Positions 5,857 through 64,000 of a stretch of DNA of 64,000 nt are shown piece by piece (within the stretch, counting starts at the first letter, position 1; the number at the start of each line of letters is the position of its first letter). Origin of the DNA: Octopus vulgaris (Eukaryota); NCBI GenBank assembly GCA_951406725.2, contig OX597819.1, positions 24,738,001 to 24,802,000 on the forward strand. The letters run 5' to 3'. The notes below the pieces were generated by a model that saw nothing but the letters and a program-made list of their open reading frames with translations, had not been told where the DNA came from and made no database searches. The position numbers were made by a program, and so were the translations under genes.

Positions 5857-6158
5857 TTTATTTATAAAATACTACAAATACCCAACATTCTTGAAGGCAC
5901 GGGGCCAGCCAGGACTTATAATTATTCTTTAAAATTTTGCCATTGCGCCAGTAGTTTGCAGGTGAGGGCGGGGCGGGGCGGAATTAGTCGGTTACATCGA
6001 ACCCAGTGCTCAACTAATACTTTGTTTTATCGACCTCCGAAAGGATTAAAGGTGAAGTTGACTTAGGCAGTATTTGAACTCAGAACATAAAGAACCGGGA
6101 GGAAATGCCGGCGCAAAGCATTTTGTCCGGTGGGCAAAAAAAAAAAGAAAGAAAGAAA

Positions 6159-25600: not shown

Positions 25601-26340
25601 AGGCGGCGAACTGGCAGAAACGTTAGCACGCCAGGCGAAATGCTTAGCGGTATTTCGTCCGTCGTTACGTTGTGAGTTCAAATTCCGCCAAGGTCGACTT
25701 TGCCTTTCATCCTTTCGGGGTCGATAAATTAAGTACCAGTTACGCGCTGGGGTCGATGTAATCGACTTAATACCTATGTCTGTCCTTGTTTGTCCCCTCT
25801 ATGTTTAGCCCCTTGTGGGTAATAAAGAAATATGTATTTCGTCTACCGCTACGTTCTGAGTTCAAATTCCGTCGAGGTCGACTTTGCCTTTCATTCTTTC
25901 GGGGTCGATTAGATAAGTACCAGTTACACACTGAGGTCAATGTAATCGGCTTAACCCGTTTGTCTGTCCTTCTTTGTCCTTTCTGTGTTTAGCCCCTTTT
26001 GGATCGTAAAGAAATAAATATTTCTTTGCGTTCAGACTTCCAGATTCCACCGAGGTCAACTTTGCCTTTCATCCTTTCGGGGTCGATTAAATAAGTACCA
26101 GTTACACACTGAGGTCAATATAATCGACTTAACCCGTTTGTCTGTCCTTCTTTGTCCTCTCTGTGTTTAGCCCCTTTTGGGTAGTAAAGAAATAAGTATT
26201 TCTTTGCTTCAGACTTCCAGATTCCACCGAGGTCAACTTTGCCTTTCATCCTTTCGGGGTCAAAAAATAAATCCCAGTTATGCCCTTGGATCGATGTAAT
26301 CGACTTACCACCCGCTTAAAATTGCTGGCCTTGTACGATA
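25601..26340 (+). mobile_element. Tandem array of SINE family B bodies (one full head plus three partial repeats)
   Basis: aggtc(g/a)actttgcctttcat recurs at about 25691, 25875, 26053 and 26230. Confidence 0.85.
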
Positions 26341-28440: not shown

Positions 28441-29004
28441 GAAAAACAACAGCATCAACAAACAAACAACAGCAAAAGCAACAATAATGAAAAATATTGA
28501 TATTAATAATAACTATAATAACAATTTACGATTTAAACATAAGACATAAAATAACATGAAATTATGATATATATTAAGTATTTTTTTTTTTTACTTTTTA
28601 TCGTTCATTTCTTATTCTATATATTTTTTTTTATTTATTTCTATCATGAACACTGTTTCTATAGTAACTATTTGCTTGACTGGGTGCCCATTTTTTTGTG
28701 GAAATATCTCTAAGTGTTGCCGTGTTTAGTGTTGCGGAAGAAAAATTCGAACATAACTTGGTTGAATTCGATCCTACTGCAGATTCTATCAGTGGACATC
28801 AAAGCTGACATTTAGCCCTAATCGACCATAAGCCAACCATTAATGGAGGTCTGTTTTAAAGCTATCTATCAACAAAAACCATACCATCATGAGTGTGAGA
28901 GCTACACCAGAGCGCTAAACTAGCATGCATCTCCTGGGGTAGAGCTGTGGTGGGACTCTCACTGAGGATGGTATGTGTAGTTGTAATGTGGAACGAGAGA
29001 GGAA

Positions 29005-29760
29005 CGAGAGAGAGAGAGAGAGAGAGAGTGCATGGTGCGAAAGAGAAAGTGAAAGAGGCGGGAAGGGAAAGCGAGAGGGAGGGGAAGGTGGAAGAAGAGA
29101 GAGAGAGTGCATGGTGCGAAAGAGAAAGTGAAAGAGGCGGGAAGAGAAAGTGAGAGGGAGGGGAAGGTGGAAGAAGAGAGGAGAGAGAGAGAGAGAGAGA
29201 GAGAGTGCATGGTGCGAAAGAGAAAGTGAAAGAGGCGGGAAGAGAAAGAGAGAGGGAGGGGAAGGTGGAAGAAGAGAGGAGAGAGAGGGAGGGGAAGGTG
29301 GAAGAAGAGAGGAGAGAGTGAGAGAGAGAGTGCATGGTGCGAAAGAGAAAGTGAAAGAGGCGGGAAGAGAAAGCGAGAGGGAGGGGAGGGGAAGGTGGAA
29401 GAAGAAGAGAGAGAGAGAGAGAGAGTGCATGGTGCAAAAGAGAAAGTGAAAGAGGCGGGAAGAGAAAGCGAGAGGGAGGGGAAGGTGGAAGAAGAGAGGA
29501 GAGAGAGAGGGAGAGAGTGCATGGTGCGAAAGAGAAAGAGAAAGAGGCGGGAAGAGAAAGCGAGAGGAAGAGGAAGGTGGAAGAAGAGAGGAGAGAGAGA
29601 GAGAGAGTGCATGGTGCGAAAGAGAAAGTGAAAGAGGCGGGAAGAGAAAGCGAGAGGAAGGGGAAGGTGGAAGAAGAGAGAGAGAGACAGAGTGCATGGT
29701 GCGAAAGAAAAAGTGAAAGAGACGGGAAGAGAAAGCGAGAGGGAGGGAAGGTAGAAGAAG

Positions 29761-29795
<35 letters not shown>

Positions 29796-30095
29796 CATGG
29801 TGCGAAAGAGAAAGTGAAAGAGGCGGGAAGAGAAAGAGAGAGGAAGGGGAAGGTGGAAGAAGAGAAGGGAGAGAGAGAGAGAGAGTGCATGGTGTGAAAG
29901 AGAAAGTGAAAGAGGCGGGAAGAGAAAGCGAGAAGAAGGGGAAAGTGGAAGAAGAGAGGAGAGAGAGAGAGAGTGCATGGTGCGAAAGAGAAAGTGAAAG
30001 AGGGGGGAAGAGAAAGCGAGAGGGAGGGGAAGGTGGAAGAAGAGAGGAGAGAGAGAGAGGGGAGGAAAGAAAAGCAGATGGGAGGAGAGATAAAG

Positions 30096-30137
<42 letters not shown>

Positions 30138-30240
30138 CATGGTGCGAAAGAGAAAGTGAAAGAGGCGGGAAGAGAAAGCGAGAAGAATGGGAAAGTGGAA
30201 GAAGAGAGGGGAGAGAGAGAGAGTGCATGGTGCGAAAAGA
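29005..30240. repeat. Purine-rich minisatellite, 13 copies of an approximately 80-100 bp unit (two longer variants)
   Basis: gagtgcatggtgcgaaagagaaagtgaaagaggcgggaagagaaagcgagagggaggggaaggtggaagaagag(ag)n; the anchor gtgcatggtg was counted 13 times. Confidence 0.95.
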
Positions 30241-30453
30241 GTGAAGGGTTAGAGCGAAAAAGTAGATAGAAGAATGAGAGTGACAAGAAAGCCATTAGAG
30301 AGAGAGAGAGTTAGAGAGAGAGAGAGAGAGAGAGAGTTAGAGAGAGAGAGAGAGTTAGAGAGAGAGTTAGAGAGAGAGAGAGAGAGAGAGAGTTAGAGAG
30401 AGAAAGAAAGACAGAGAGAAAGAGAGAGAGAAAGGGATAAAAGGAGAGAGAGT

Positions 30454-37250: not shown

Positions 37251-38697
37251 ATGGCTGTGTGGTAAGTAGCTTGCTAACCTACCACATGGTTCCGGGTTCA
37301 GTCCCACTGCGTGGCATCTTGGGCAAGTGTCTTCTGCTATAGCCCCGGGCCGACCAATGCCTTGTGAGTGGATTTGGTAGACGGAAACTGAAAGAAGCCT
37401 GTCGTATATATGTATATATATATATATAATTTTAATCCAAACGGGAAAACAGAAAAAACAACAACACGTGGAACAATTACAGTATTATTATTAATAGGCG
37501 CTCAGGAAAGATGGAAGCAGGAAGGTATGACGTTTCGAGCGGAGCTCTTCGTCGGAAACATAAAGAAGGAAGAGAGAGGAAAGAAAGATCCCAAAGTGGG
37601 CAACAAGAGGGAGAAAAAAAAACGACTGGTGTTTACGAAGTACACATGGTGAAAGGCGGAAGTTTACGATAACAAGAGCAAAGTAGGTTTTTAAAGCCAA
37701 AAGAGTGGAGACAGGGTTGGTAACGCAACAGATGTGTGTGTATGTGTGAGTGTGTGCGTGTGCGTGTGTGTATGTGTGTGTGAGGCGAGATAAAAAAACA
37801 AAAAATATATGTATATGTTAGTGTGTGCGTCTTTGTGTAGGCGTGTGAGGTAGGGCGAACAGTAGTAGGCATAGCAGACAGTGGTCAGTAGTAAGAAAAT
37901 GAAGGAAGGAGGAAGGGAGGGAGGGGAAGGGGTGGGGGCGTATGTAACGTGCCAGCGTGTGTGTTGAGTAGTAGTGTGTGTGTGTCCAGTGTCGTAGTTG
38001 TATGTATGGCGAGTAGATTTGAAGTGTGTGTAAGAGTAATGTATATATTTAAGCAAATGTGTGTGTGTGAGTGGGTGTATGTATGTGTGCGCGTGTGTGT
38101 AACAAAAAGGGGGGTGTTATAAGGAAAAAGGACTCCAGCTGAGGGGAAGATGGAAGAGTGGTCCCGCGGAGACGGGCGTGGGAGAACCCAATGACAGGCG
38201 ACGGCCCCAGAAACGAGCGGGAGGTCTCGTCGGGTCCAAGAGCGAGGTGCATGCATGCGCGTATGCGTGCGCGAACCGGCGCAAGCGCGTGTGTGCGCGC
38301 GCCTGCGAGTGTGTGTGTAAGTATGTATGTGTGTGGATGTGTGAGTGTGTCTGTGTGTATGTCTGGGTGTCAGTGTGTCCGATGAATGTATGTAAGTATG
38401 TGTGTATATATGTGTGTGCATAGATGTATGTCCGTGTGTGTGTGTGTGTGTATGTGTATATATATATAAGTGTGTGTGTATATGTTTGTGTGTCTGTGTT
38501 TGTCCCTCTAGCATTGCTTGACAACCGATGCTGGTGTGTTTACGTCCCCGTCACTTAGCGGTTCGGCAAAAGAGACCGATAGAATAAGTACTGGGCTTAC
38601 AAAGAATAAGTCTCGGGGTCGATTTGCTCGACTAAAGGCGGTGCTCCAGCATGGCCACAGTCAAATGACTGAAACAAGTAAAAGAGTAAAAGAGTAA
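37251..38697 (+). mobile_element. SINE family A split by an insertion of about 1 kb in its internal (TA)n
   Basis: 5' half at 37251-37428 and 3' half at about 38455-38697 are collinear with intact copies. Confidence 0.88.
37525..37559 (-). ncRNA. Minimal type I hammerhead-like motif (core CCGACGA)
   Basis: Minus strand reads gttt-CCGACGA-a-gagc(tcc)gctc-GAAA-CGTC-atac, with a GUC triplet. Downstream ttcctgagcgcc motif is shared with the 9080 and 15900 segments. Confidence 0.65.
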
Positions 38698-50194: not shown

Positions 50195-50235
50195 TCAGTA
50201 CCGGTTTCAGTCATTGAGACTTTTTCAACTTTAAG
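50195..50235 (-). ncRNA. Divergent hammerhead-like motif
   Basis: Minus strand reads aaGTTGA-aaa-agtc(tcaat)gact-GAAA-CCGG-TA-ctg, with palindromic ACCGGT. The 5' core is non-canonical. Confidence 0.35.
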
Positions 50236-50367
50236 TATGGAAAACAATTTAATTTAGAAAAATTTAAAAAGTCTTTTTTAAAAGAATATTTGTATAGTGT
50301 TCAAATACAAGTGGCATTTTCCTTGTTTCTGCCTGTCTCTGTCTCTCTTGTTTACTCTTGTGGGTTC

Positions 50368-51066
50368 GAGGTCGTTGTCGATCAGGTAAAGGACCTGGGT
50401 ATCTTGGTGGATTCCTCCTTTTCGCCTTCGGCCCAGTGCATCCATGCTGCCAACAAAGCGCGCGGAATTCTGTTTTTGATTCGACGGTCATTCAGAATGC
50501 TCACAGCAGCCATATTCCTGCCACTCTATGTCACGCTGGTGAGACCCATATTGGAGTATGGGATTCAAGCCTCTTCTCCTTATCTCCTCAAAGACATACA
50601 GCACCTCGAAAGAGTCCAGAGGCTGCCTACCCGCATGGTTCATGGTCTCAAAAATTTGTCCTACGAAGAAAGGCTGAGGACGCTCGACCTTTATTCTCTT
50701 GAAAAACGCCGCCGCCGTGGTGATCTCATTCTCGCCCACAACATCATAAGCGGGAAGTGTAACCTCTCGAAAGAGCTGTTCTTCACTCCTGCTCCGGAGC
50801 GTCGGCTGCGGGGTCATTCCGAAAAGCTCTACCTGCGACGATTTCATCTCAATCGAAGGAGAGGAGCTTTCTCCGTCCGGGTTGCGGATCCGTGGAACAA
50901 GCTGCCAGACGAGATGGTGAAGATGCCGACGACCGCTTTGTTCAAAGCCTCCCTGGACCTCAAGTGGCCTGAACTCTTTACATGAACACCACCCTGTACT
51001 TAACTCCATGTCCCCCTACATGGCCTTGCTATTTGCTTTTGAGCCAAATTAACTAACTAACTAACA
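50368..51066 (+). mobile_element. 5'-truncated CR1-clade LINE with open RT C-terminal ORF and (CTAA)n tail
   Basis: KDLGILVDS..LYVTLVRPILEYG..LERVQR..LSYEERL..LYSLEKRRRRGDLI..RLRGH..FSVRVADPWNKLP, stop at 50985, tail taactaactaactaac. Confidence 0.92.
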
Positions 51067-51067
51067 T

Positions 51068-51098
<31 letters not shown>

Positions 51099-51178
51099 TA
51101 ATTATTCATATATACATAATTATATATATATATATATATATATAGATAGATAGATAGATATAATTATTCATATATACA

Positions 51179-51233
<55 letters not shown>

Positions 51234-51235
<2 letters not shown>

Positions 51236-54200
51236 TCTTTTTGTAGTTTCAGCTCAGAGCTGTGGCCATGCTGGGGCACCGCCGTTTTGCTACACTGTTA
51301 TTACTGAGAGCATCCTCTAATATGTGGCACTTGGTGAAGAATAGAGTTTGATGTTACTACCCTCATTTGCACCTCTTGCTGTGAGGTAGGCTCATCTCCG
51401 ACTCTCGGCAGGAATAAGTCCAGTTTTGATTTAAAAACACCTATATCCACTTTGCGTAGGTCCTTCAGGCTCTTTGAGAGTATATTAAAAAGCTGTATGC
51501 CCCTGAAGCCCAGGCTGTTACAGTAACTGGTCCTGAAATGCGATGCCGTTGCTGGGATCTTTGGCACTGTGCAGTGTCGACCCGTTCTGGCATTGGTGTA
51601 GCTCTCAATGCCAAACTTTGGCACAATTACTTCCAGGATCTTCCAGGTGTATATTACTGCATGCCTCTCCCGCCTTCATTCCAGGGTGTAGAGTCTTAGC
51701 TGTTTCAGCCTTTCCCAGTAGCTGAGCTGTTGCAATGAGATGGTCTTCTTTGTGAGGCTTCGCAGGATTGCTTCAAGGTTCTCTGTTAATTTTATATTGT
51801 TGAGTGACCATAGCTGGGAGCAGTAATCCTGGCGGCTGAGGACGAACGTCCTCCAGAGGACCATCATGGTTTCCTTTTCTCTGGTTCTGAACGTTCTCAA
51901 GATCCAGCCAGCCAGCCAGTGGTCTGCACTTTGTCGCCTATTAATGTGCACTTGGTAAGCGGTATCATCACTTATGTCGATTCCCAGGTGCCTCTCTGAT
52001 TTATGCTCTGGGATTGTAATCCCTTGTGGACCAGTGGACCCTGTAAGTTTTATATTCAGTTTTGGACGCTGGTATCGCAGGACTTAGAATTTTTCAGAAT
52101 TAAATTGCATATTATTATCCTCAGCCCATCTGTAAATTGAGTACAACTCCTGCTGCATGTCTGAAACATCGCTGGGGTTCTGTATTTTCTGCGAGACTTT
52201 CGTATAGTCTGCGTAGCTAGCAAGAGTGGCTAGCCGGGCAATTGAGAGTATATCTAAGAGGGCCCCTATGCAGTGGTCCCAAGACAGTGCCCTGTGGAAC
52301 GCCGCTCACTATTTGTGTTTTCATTGAGGTGATTCCATTGGCCACTACTGCCTGACTTTCAGAAAGTCATGTAACCACTCTCCAAGTTTCCAGCTATGCC
52401 GAGATCACGCAGTTTGTGGTATATCATACCATGATCCACTTTATCAAAAGCTTTTGCAAAATCAAGGTATATTACGTCCACATTTGAGTTGTTGAGTAAC
52501 TGCCTCAACACCCAATCATAGTGCTGTAAGAGCTGTGTCAGGCAGCTCCTACCTGGTCGAAAGCAAATCGTTTTCTTCAAGGAATGCGATTAGTTTCCCT
52601 CTGACAATCTATTCCATGACTTTGCTGATGTGTGAAGTCAGTGAGATAGGCCTATAGTCTTTGGCATCTGCTCTGCTTCCCCCTTTATTGATTGGGCATA
52701 TTATTCCCTCCTTCAGTTTGCTTGGCAGCCTGCCATTTGCAAGAAAGCTCTAGAAAGCAATCTGTAATGGTTTTGCCAGGGCACGCTTACACGATTTGAG
52801 GAGGATTGCTGGGAAACCATCAGGACCAACAGTTGAATTTGCGTCCACCTCATCTATGGCTAGTAGTATATCTTCTTCGCTAATGTCAATGTAATCCATC
52901 GTAACTGCCTCGCTGGTTATAGGTGAGGCAGCAAAGAAATCCACTGGTTCGTTCACTTGTCCGTGCTCCAACGGGGTGGTAAAGACACTTTTGAACTGGT
53001 CATTGACCCTGGTTGTACTATCTGTGAGGGAGCCATTCTATTGGAAGAAGGGGGCTTATCTTGCAACTTACTGAGGCTGTTTCTTTCGCATAGTGAAAGA
53101 AGGGCTTTGGGTTTGACTTAATGTTTTTTATAACCCAGGCTTCTTTGTTTGCTCTCTCCCTCACATTGGATTGTTGCAGTCTTTTTTCAATCTCCATCAG
53201 TGTTGTTTTTAGACGGGACCTTTCACTACTTTTGGAATGTTAATTGAGGCGATTTGCAACCTTCGCTCGTTGTCTCATGAGGATCTTCCTCTCCCATAGA
53301 ATCTTGTTCCTTTTTGTGTTGGCCTTGTGCACATATTTCTGGCATATGGTTTGCATAACTGACATGAAATATTCTAGTGTCATGTCAATGTCTAGTGTGG
53401 AGAAACATTTCAGCCAGTCCTGTCTGAAGATCTCTTTTTGGATCGATTTCCAATCTGCTTTGTGGAAGTTTAGATTGGAGAGATTTTGGGTGCTTCCCTT
53501 AGGCTGTATGTCTCTGATTACTTTCGGCCCAAACATAGACAGCTCTATTATGTTGTGATCCGAGACTAATTTCGGCGTCACTTTCACATCATGAACGATG
53601 TCTATATTGCTTGTGAAGCAGACATCCAAAATGTTATTCGCCCTAGTTGGTCTGAGTACAACTTGCTCCATGAATAGGGCATTGGTGAGGTTGAGCAGGG
53701 ACTCCACCTGTGCTTGCTTGTAATGAGTCAATCCTGAGAGCATGAGACCTTCGGGCCATTTGACATTGGGGAAGTTGAAATCTCCCATAAGAAATACGCT
53801 CACGTGGTGCTTCAGTTTCATGAGGAATTCTTTAATTCTTTGTGAAGCAATCTTCAAATTTGCCTATGTGGTTTGGAGCATCTGGTGGGCAATATGTAGT
53901 GCATAGACTATATTGTGCTGTCTTATGTATACAATTAGAGCGTCACATAGTGAATTTAGCATGACAGTAAGACCTGGGGTATGAGATCATCACGGATGTA
54001 TACAGCAACTCCACCATGGCTCCTTTCTCTTCTATCTGGTCGCAGTATGGTATATTTAGCTACGTGTACTTCTGTATCCTCTATATCAGGGCTCGGATGA
54101 GTTTCCACGAGTGCTATGCATAGGGTTTGATTACTTGCAGCAAGGTCTCTCTGGAAAAAAAATTTTGTTTCTGTTGTTATGATGCATCAGGCCCCCAGTA

Positions 54201-63352: not shown

Positions 63353-64000
63353 GGATCTTTACCTTTTGACCGACAGATTTTAAAAAAATGATTTTTTGTA
63401 ACTAAACACTTTCAAACTTCGTATACTTGTAGAATGTGTCACATAAAACATCTTTTACTCTTGGCGTTGTTGAGAAAATTCTGTATTTTGGAAGTTATTT
63501 TTTGTTAAAGTAGTCGTATTTCGGTAATTTCAACCAATCAATGACGTGTTTTCAGCTGAATAAAAGTACTACTGTTGTTTGTCAAAAACAACTATCGGCG
63601 GTGTGTATTTCGTTTGTCATTTATGACATCGTTCGTGCCTTTGTACTGGTTTTAGTTTTAAGGTTTTCGGGTTAGGGTTTTAGGGTTAGCGTTAGGGTTT
63701 TAGGGTTAGGGTTTTAGGGTTAGGGCTAGGATTAGGATTAGGGATTTAGGGTTAGGGTTATGGAAAAAATGAAAAATGAAGCACGAACGATTGTGGTGGT
63801 GCCATGAAGTAAACATGCTTGAGATACACTCGTTTATTGATACAGAAGTAACTGAGATGAAATATGTCATAAATAACAGTGACAAACGAAATATACACCG
63901 CCGGAAGTTGTTGTTGACAAACAACGGCAGTAATTTTATTCAGCTGAATACACGTCATTGATTGGTTGAAATTACCGAAATAAGACAACTTTAACAAAAA
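63353..64000. mobile_element. Foldback/MITE-like element with long inverted arms and internal (TTAGGG)-like repeats; runs off the window end
   Basis: 63499-63628 is the reverse complement of about 63863-64000. Degenerate TTAGGG array at 63649-63760. The left boundary is approximate. Confidence 0.8.

What the first reader, a model, noticed from the sequence alone, without database searches (positions are those of the whole stretch)
37251..38697. Ribozyme-bearing 1-kb element inserted in the TA run inside a SINE
A family A SINE is split at its internal (TA)n and the halves rejoin collinearly. The insert (about 37429-38455) carries a hammerhead motif at 37525 (-), long (GT)n tracts and a GC-rich block at 38150-38310. 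It postdates the SINE insertion and its ends are well defined, so it is direct evidence of insertion into TA. SINE-borne TA runs may supply targets genome-wide (inference).
Basis: partly seen in the sequence, partly recalled or inferred. Interest (0 to 1): 0.72.

Follow-up and report, generated by a model that had tools for sequence, protein, structure and literature searches.

The report
Truncated Neptune retrotransposon inside a SINE
This is the broken-off tail of a young, abundant Penelope-type jumping gene that landed in the TA repeat inside one short repeat element (SINE); TA targeting by such elements is already known and SINEs supply only about a tenth of its landing sites, but its predicted self-cutting RNA motif carries a changed core letter that likely weakens it.

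Summary
The split is real: one SINE is interrupted at its (TA)n by a 1,028-base insert (37429-38456, minus strand), and its halves rejoin with nothing lost. The insert is not a 1-kb element with two fixed ends. It is the 5'-truncated 3' end of a 6.2-kb Neptune-type Penelope-like element with one 949-aa RT + GIY-YIG frame, a ~3-kb (CA)-rich 3' UTR, pseudo-LTRs and a minimal hammerhead. About 1,200 near-identical 3' ends exist, and 1,014 of 1,088 outer ends run straight into TA. SINE-borne TA runs take 6 of 68 sampled insertions, no more than their share of TA runs (8-18%), so there is no SINE preference. The GC-rich block is internal to the 3' UTR, not a 5' end. The hammerhead has C for U at core position 4 (8,547 genomic copies against 3,565 with U) and, in this youngest subfamily, a stem I mismatch; cleavage is untested. 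The scan noted Penelope ends in TA runs and the U4C core before, on other DNA of this and other genomes. New member of a known kind; interest 0.25.

The parts
37252..37404 (+). 5' half of the host SINE (A/B-box-like tRNA-type head, about 9 bases short at its 5' end)
   Evidence: collinear with six intact window copies; 5 differences in 153 to the copy at 1919; box reading by eye
37405..37428 (.). left part of the SINE's internal (TA)n target; its last four bases (37425-37428) also match the element's terminal TATA
37429..38456 (-). 5'-truncated 3' end (3' UTR / pseudo-LTR part) of a Neptune-type Penelope-like element
   Evidence: 6 differences in 1026 to L040; 7 in 1021 to L042 and 12 in 1004 to L044, both of which run on into RT
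37525..37559 (-). minimal type I hammerhead-like motif: stem I of 4 pairs with one U-U mismatch, core with C at position 4, extra A before stem II, stem II GAGC/GCUC, palindromic ACGU in place of stem III; predicted cut between 37529 and 37528
   Evidence: architecture as in PMC4209133; activity untested; no Rfam hit
37733..37782 (-). degenerate (CA)n tract of the 3' UTR ((GT)n on +)
   Evidence: shared by family copies
38150..38310 (-). GC-rich island inside the 3' UTR; not a 5' end; no unusual fold
   Evidence: present near the 3' end of full units and in long upstream pseudo-LTRs; fold z-scores 0.33 and -0.05
38309..38456 (-). start of the long degenerate (CA)n region, cut by the 5' truncation
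38457..38468 (.). right part of the SINE's (TA)n target; first three bases shared with the element at the truncation point
38469..38697 (+). 3' half of the host SINE
   Evidence: collinear with six intact copies; 7 differences in 202 to the copy at 1919

Best explanation
The insert is the 5'-truncated 3' end of a young Neptune-type Penelope-like retrotransposon, sitting in the (TA)n run of a single older SINE, and it was likely placed there by target-primed reverse transcription. Shown: the full unit is 6.2 kb with one 949-950-aa frame (RT, Cys-rich linker, C-terminal GIY-YIG), a ~3-kb (CA)-rich 3' UTR and a minimal hammerhead about 100 bases before a fixed 3' end; full units are preceded by a 5'-truncated copy of their own end (pseudo-LTR); outer 3' ends sit in TA. 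Inferred: the endonuclease nicks (TA)n; the freed DNA end pairs with the UAUA at the unit boundary in the RNA and primes copying, which would explain a base-exact 3' end with no poly(A) and no tail; copying stopped after about 1 kb and joined through a 3-base microhomology; more-than-unit copying of one RNA (circular or tandem) makes the pseudo-LTRs. The SINE was likely hit because it carries TA, not because it is a SINE. The hammerhead likely cuts weakly, and only as a dimer, if at all.
For: Relatives within about 1% of the insert continue into RT and GIY-YIG. 19 of 20 loci picked by RT run on to the same 3' end. 4 of 23 full units have an unbroken 949-950-aa frame, 7-20 substitutions apart in 2850 bases. 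Linker CxxxxCxxC and its long spacing to the GIY-YIG cysteines match the Neptune rows, not the Nematis rows, of Fig. S2 in PMC8557442. 1,014 of 1,088 outer ends continue as TATATA (1169 ends, 81 internal junctions). TA also lies at 14 of 18 visible 5' junctions (read by eye), so it is target, not only tail. 20 of 20 internal-junction loci are followed by a near-whole unit, none by a short tail. The two ends of one insertion are more alike than ends of different insertions: 12 of 22 pairs identical over 305 bases, mean 4.3 against 9.6 substitutions. SINE-borne share is 6 of 68 ends against 8 of 45 and 10 of 69 TA runs, or 8-12% of TA bases.
Against: Clade was assigned from motifs and spacing, not from a tree with named references. 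Pfam hits are below the curated cut-offs (RVT_1 E 0.0017, GIY-YIG E 0.0019), though 701 relatives were found and nearly all of the 120 listed carry RT domain entries. The full units with intact frames belong to a sister branch, about 89% identical to the insert with gaps counted. Priming by TATA pairing, the nick and the RNA form are inferred, and PMC3846280 proposes a different, self-priming model for Penelope elements. No target-site duplication can be read in TA. No empty-site allele was seen. Two of the 22 pseudo-LTR pairs (L211, L213) were not closer within than between; their upstream copies appear shorter than the stretch compared.
Confidence: 0.92

Rival explanations
1. A non-coding 1-kb retrozyme or SINE-like element with two defined ends and its own promoter in the GC block (closest to the first reader's wording).
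For: The window copy has no coding frame, has a hammerhead motif and sharp junctions; animal retrozymes derive from Penelope pseudo-LTRs (bioRxiv 10.64898/2026.07.22.740005).
Against: Most of the nearest copies run past 38456 and end at scattered points, some 3 kb or more away or inside RT; in the position-ordered sample the 5' ends range from about 80 bases to beyond 1.5 kb; no tandem 1-kb monomers were seen in the loci examined.
Confidence: 0.02
2. The element seeks this SINE, or SINE-borne TA runs are its main target supply.
For: At least six other SINE copies are split at the TA run with both halves present (L008, L110, L124, L131, L133, L136); the SINE is very common (92,139 exact matches to a 24-base motif at its TA run).
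Against: 6 of 68 sampled outer ends are SINE-borne against 14-18% of TA runs and 8-12% of TA bases; strict junction patterns find 3 and 5 matches (4 distinct places) genome-wide among about 1,000 ends (lower bounds, long TA runs are missed); both orientations occur.
Confidence: 0.04
3. The TA at the 3' end is a tail made by the element (slippage on its terminal UAUA), and the two SINE halves come from different copies or from a rearrangement.
For: 4 of 18 visible 5' junctions lack a TA run; in L124 and L133 nearly all the TA lies on the 3' side; no SINE target-site duplication was found.
Against: Intact SINEs already carry the TA run at this very place; both halves are equally close to the same intact copy; 14 of 18 5' junctions have TA. 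Some lengthening of the run on insertion is not excluded.
Confidence: 0.03
4. The parent is a Penelope-like element of another clade (Nematis, Hydra, Naiad, Penelope/Poseidon).
For: Nematis shares the linker motif; Naiad and Hydra families also prefer (TA)n and occur in octopus (PMC8557442); Neptune was paraphyletic in that paper's tree.
Against: The endonuclease is C-terminal (not Naiad); the Cys linker is present (absent from the Penelope/Poseidon rows); the CCHH cysteines are present (absent in Hydra); linker spacing is long as in the Neptune rows.
Confidence: 0.06

Closest known systems
Neptune clade of endonuclease-bearing Penelope-like elements (Arkhipova 2006 as cited in Craig et al. 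2021, PMC8557442; seen: passages, supplement searches and supplement part 54)
   Same: One frame with RT, CX2-5CxxC linker and C-terminal GIY-YIG with CCHH; partial tandems forming pseudo-LTRs; 5' truncation; hammerhead near the 3' end; microsatellite bias that hides target-site duplications.
   Different: Unit of 6.2 kb with a ~3-kb degenerate (CA)n 3' UTR (PMC6765202 gives about 3 kb as the average whole element); no 30-40-base tail in 20 of 20 internal junctions; base-exact 3' end on a TATA shared with the target. This family was not found by name in the papers searched; Repbase, Dfam and a published octopus repeat library were not available to check.
Minimal hammerheads (min-HHR) of metazoan Penelope-like elements (Cervera and de la Pena 2014, PMC4209133; seen: parts 1-2 of 4)
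   Same: Type I layout, short stem I, an unpaired base between positions 9 and 10.1, G10.1-C11.1 pair, palindromic 15.2-16.2 and no stem III, location in both pseudo-LTRs.
   Different: C at core position 4 throughout the young subfamilies, a U-U mismatch in stem I in the youngest, and a short 4-pair stem II. The text read names a U3-A8 variant, not U4C; its figures were not seen.
U4C hammerhead variant of a viroid (as cited in Perreault et al. 2011, PMC3088659; seen: passages)
   Same: Same core change, reported to lower activity in vitro yet to allow infectivity.
   Different: There it sits in a full ribozyme with tertiary contacts; here in a minimal motif, in thousands of genomic copies.
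Naiad and Hydra elements of octopus (PMC8557442, supplement rows)
   Same: (TA)n insertion preference, octopus hosts.
   Different: Naiads have an N-terminal endonuclease and no canonical hammerhead; Hydra lacks the CCHH motif.

Membership tests
Penelope-like elements, endonuclease-bearing | Single frame with RT and GIY-YIG endonuclease | tested here: met
   949-950-aa unbroken frame in 4 of 23 full units; RT and GIY-YIG motifs; Pfam hits weak; 701 relatives
Penelope-like elements, endonuclease-bearing | Partial tandem forming pseudo-LTRs; 5'-truncated copies | tested here: met
   20 of 20 internal-junction loci followed by a near-whole 6.2-kb unit; scattered 5' ends
Penelope-like elements, endonuclease-bearing | Hammerhead motif in the pseudo-LTR | tested here: met
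   motif at both ends of full units, with a variant core
Neptune clade | CX2-5CxxC linker between RT and a C-terminal endonuclease, with CCHH | tested here: met
   compared by eye with Fig. S2 rows of PMC8557442
Neptune clade | RT phylogeny with named references | not testable with these tools
   no clade-labelled reference proteins came back from the searches
Neptune clade | Microsatellite insertion bias | tested here: met
   1,014 of 1,088 outer ends continue as TA
Nematis clade | Short spacing between the linker and the GIY-YIG cysteines, as in the Fig. S2 rows | tested here: not met
   spacing is long, as in the Neptune rows
Naiad clade | N-terminal GIY-YIG, no canonical hammerhead | tested here: not met
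   endonuclease is C-terminal
Hydra clade | Endonuclease without the CCHH motif | tested here: not met
   CCHH cysteines present; feature from PMC8557442
Non-LTR retrozymes | Short non-coding monomers in tandem, one hammerhead each | tested here: not met
   the unit is 6.2 kb and coding
Hammerhead ribozyme (minimal type I) | Conserved core C3 U4 G5 A6 N7 G8 A9 ... G12 A13 A14, U16.1 H17 | tested here: not met
   all positions present except U4, which is C; no Rfam hit
Hammerhead ribozyme (minimal type I) | Stems I and II; palindrome allowing a dimeric stem III | tested here: inconclusive
   stem II forms in the predicted fold; stem I is fully paired in 50 of 61 lineage copies with wobble and compensatory changes, but has a U-U mismatch in 8 of 61, including this copy; fold z-scores -0.87 to -1.73, and the best fold pairs part of the core
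Hammerhead ribozyme (minimal type I) | Self-cleavage | not testable with these tools
   no raw RNA reads were offered
tRNA-derived SINE (host) | A and B boxes, high copy number, no coding frame | tested here: inconclusive
   box-like words read by eye; 92,139 exact motif matches; not compared with a named SINE library

The most novel reading that the evidence does not exclude
The most recently spreading branch of this Neptune lineage, with intact enzymes, has lost ribozyme cleavage in steps (U4->C, then a stem I mismatch) and no longer needs it: its insertions are defined instead by a TATA at the unit boundary that pairs with the nicked (TA)n target. The lineage would then be a natural series for testing whether Penelope-like elements need their hammerhead.
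Probability: 0.3. Interest if true: 0.55.

Novelty: new member of a known kind. Interest (0 to 1): 0.25.

Why it matters
As a split SINE it is a clean but ordinary nested insertion that fixes the order of events (SINE first) and shows TA as a pre-existing target. It corrects the idea that SINEs steer this element: they give about a tenth of the sites. The lasting value is the family: young, with intact 949-aa frames, a base-exact 3' end and a graded series of hammerhead variants. PMC8557442 calls hammerhead function in these elements unclear, and this lineage offers matched U4 and C4 versions for a direct test. The family also carries long degenerate (CA)n tracts into TA runs.

Tried and rejected
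Rfam at gathering threshold: no hit in the window. Folding of the motif and of the GC block: no significant stability. Bacterial promoter/terminator scan: nothing, and not applicable to an animal. A programmed frameshift between the N-terminal part and RT: rejected, since breaks fall at different homopolymers in different copies and four copies are unbroken. U4 copies as sporadic CpG decay of C4: rejected, since the label follows subfamilies (3 changes on the tree against 20 when shuffled; 59 rows, L150 and L181 left out as truncated, position 4 masked). Direction of the U4/C4 change: not shown; the root rests on one long branch and nearest-neighbour distances do not differ (median 0.096 against 0.116, p 0.19). 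Expression: no RNA holder listed; four runs laid were contigs only and gave no starts, ends or listed joints, so nothing is concluded. Empty-site allele: not attempted, because only contigs were offered and they break inside a high-copy SINE. SINE target-site duplication: none found. No other piece of this element's coding region in the window (tblastn). Lunse et al. 2017 on small Penelope hammerheads is not held and may describe such core variants. No structure or complex prediction was run.

Full report
Observation. The window shows a SINE 5' half (37252-37404), a TA run, a 1,028-base insert (37429-38456), a second TA run and the SINE 3' half (38469-38697). Both halves align end to end with six intact copies in the window and meet at the internal (TA)n, with no SINE base lost or doubled. 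They differ from the closest intact copy by 5 of 153 and 7 of 202 bases, as expected for one copy. No shared flanking word of 6 or more bases was found, so the SINE's own target-site duplication cannot be used. The insert has no second copy in the window. The host looks octopus-like; this rests on recall of the SINE type and on earlier scan notes, and was not tested.

What the insert is. A search of the genome with the first 306 bases gave 2,190 candidates; the 40 scored are 98-100% identical. In most of the 30 loci fetched the match continued past the window's far junction. Twenty longer stretches, 19 of which could be oriented, showed copies ending at scattered points up to 3 kb and more away. 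L042 and L044, which differ from the insert by 7 of 1021 and 12 of 1004 bases, run on into a reverse transcriptase and a GIY-YIG endonuclease on the same strand as the hammerhead. Conversely, 19 of 20 loci picked by the RT run on to the same 3' end. The unit is 6.19 kb. Four of 23 full units keep one unbroken frame of 949-950 aa, 7-20 substitutions apart in 2,850 bases; the others break at different places, often homopolymers. These intact units belong to a sister branch about 89% identical to the insert with gaps counted. The frame is followed by about 3 kb of degenerate (CA)n with two GC-rich islands, then the hammerhead and the 3' end. The window holds the last sixth of the unit.

Clade. 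The endonuclease is C-terminal, carries the CCHH cysteines, and is preceded by a CxxxxCxxC linker whose long spacing matches the Neptune rows of Fig. S2 in Craig et al. 2021 rather than the Nematis rows (PMC8557442). Pfam hits are weak, but 701 relatives were found at E 0.001 or better, the best 56% identical, nearly all of the 120 listed with RT domain entries and none with a clade name. No tree with named references could be built.

Target. An exact 18-base end motif occurs 1,169 times; 1,014 continue as TATATA and 81 continue into the next unit, so 1,014 of 1,088 outer ends (93%) enter perfect TA. A 24-base motif further in occurs 1,260 times. In the first 30 of these by position, 28 are outer ends, all in TA-rich runs, and 2 are internal; 14 of 18 visible 5' junctions also have TA (read by eye), so TA is a pre-existing target, though 4 of 18 lack it and some lengthening is possible. 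In 60 copies of the wider lineage, 51 have TA at the end. Other SINEs are split the same way in both orientations (L008, L110, L124, L131, L133, L136). The SINE is very common (92,139 exact matches), yet only 6 of 68 sampled outer ends are SINE-borne, against 8 of 45 other TA runs in the window, 10 of 69 in distant flanks, and 8-12% of TA bases. That sample missed seven ends with variant spelling and did not count L008, where a second insert intervenes. Strict junction patterns found 3 and 5 matches (4 distinct places), lower bounds. The SINE supplies targets roughly in proportion to its TA and is not preferred.

Mechanism. Shown: a base-exact 3' end whose last four bases (TATA) are also the first of the target and are the same bases that precede the next unit at internal junctions; no poly(A); no short tail, since 20 of 20 internal-junction loci continue into a near-whole unit (19 to its end, one to base 5,915); variable 5' ends, here with a 3-base microhomology. 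The two ends of one insertion are closer than ends of different insertions (12 of 22 pairs identical over 305 bases; mean 4.3 against 9.6 substitutions, two rows inflated by short upstream copies; pairs not independent). Inferred: nicking of (TA)n, priming by pairing with the boundary UAUA, early stop, and more-than-unit copying from one circular or tandem RNA as proposed by Cervera and de la Pena (PMC4209133). A self-priming model has also been proposed for Penelope elements (PMC3846280). Because insertions include about 100 bases beyond the predicted cut site, the template is either uncut there or rejoined.

The hammerhead. The motif at 37525-37559 has the minimal layout of PMC4209133 (extra base after position 9, G-C first pair of stem II, palindromic ACGU, no stem III), but C at core position 4. 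The 28-base motif occurs 8,547 times with C and 3,565 times with U (the stem II arms were fixed by the pattern, so their constancy is no evidence). On a tree of 59 copies the label changes 3 times against 20 when shuffled, so it is inherited by subfamily; the direction is not shown. Stem I is fully paired in 50 of 61 copies, with wobble and compensatory variants, one of them in a distant C4 family (L153); 8 of 61, including this copy, have a U-U mismatch. All four intact-frame units carry C4 and the mismatch. Rfam gives no hit, and the best predicted fold pairs part of the core. U4C is reported to lower activity in vitro yet to allow viroid infectivity (PMC3088659). Cleavage here is untested; no RNA holder was listed and only contigs could be laid.

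What is known. Microsatellite bias in Neptune, (TA)n preference in Naiad and Hydra elements, pseudo-LTRs and hammerheads are all in print (PMC8557442; PMC4209133; PMC6765202). A recent octopus repeat annotation lists 31 recently active Penelope-like families without detail (PMC13282606). Seven paper searches found no description of this family or of U4C in Penelope hammerheads; one search listed one paper (PMC13481778) that I did not open, Lunse et al. 2017 is not held, and figures, most supplements, Repbase and Dfam were not seen, so absence from print is not established. Papers as seen: PMC8557442 passages, two supplement searches and one supplement part; PMC4209133 parts 1-2 of 4; bioRxiv 10.64898/2026.07.22.740005 part 1 of 5; PMC13282606 parts 1-2 of 3; PMC3088659, PMC6765202, PMC12602865, PMC4758252 and PMC3846280 passages. 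Earlier scan notes report Penelope ends in TA runs and the U4C core on other DNA of this and other genomes; none was returned for this place or sequence.

Verdict. Observation confirmed, interpretation partly supported. A new member of a known kind: a truncated Neptune-type insertion in a TA run that happens to lie in a SINE. Interest 0.25. The most novel open reading, that the youngest branch spreads without a working ribozyme, has probability 0.3 and would merit 0.55.

Noticed in passing
window 50218-53863: Several broken frames that look like RT C-terminal and AP-endonuclease pieces of LINE elements (resemblance to CR1/L2 recalled, not tested).
   Followed up: no
window 63648-63760: Degenerate (GGGTTA)n / GGTTTTAGGGTTAG array resembling telomeric repeats, far from a contig end.
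   Followed up: no
window 25650-26307 and 28862-30431: A 178-184-base tandem array of about 3.5 copies, and a GA-rich 92-base minisatellite.
   Followed up: no
L047, about 3.7-7.2 kb from the element's 3' end, same strand: An unbroken 1,138-aa frame of a different Penelope-like element with asparagine-rich stretches, RT and GIY-YIG motifs, next to a truncated copy of this family.
   Followed up: no
L094, oriented 716-2743: A 676-aa frame whose start resembles the Hydra-clade motif seen in the supplement of PMC8557442.
   Followed up: no
G000:C1:119858850-119867974: Four 3' ends of this family spaced about 3 kb apart, each followed by TA; either a local tandem duplication or a shorter unit.
   Followed up: no
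G000:C10:97806609-97818985: Three internal junctions 6.2 kb apart: a tandem of several whole units.
   Followed up: no
L016, L024, L086, L203: Insertions pile up in one TA run: a related hammerhead end lies beside the element in L016 and L024, a second short end in L086, and an inverted copy follows the 3' end in L203.
   Followed up: partly
window 22535 (+) and 35035 (-): Two loose hammerhead-core-like words without clear stems; probably chance.
   Followed up: no
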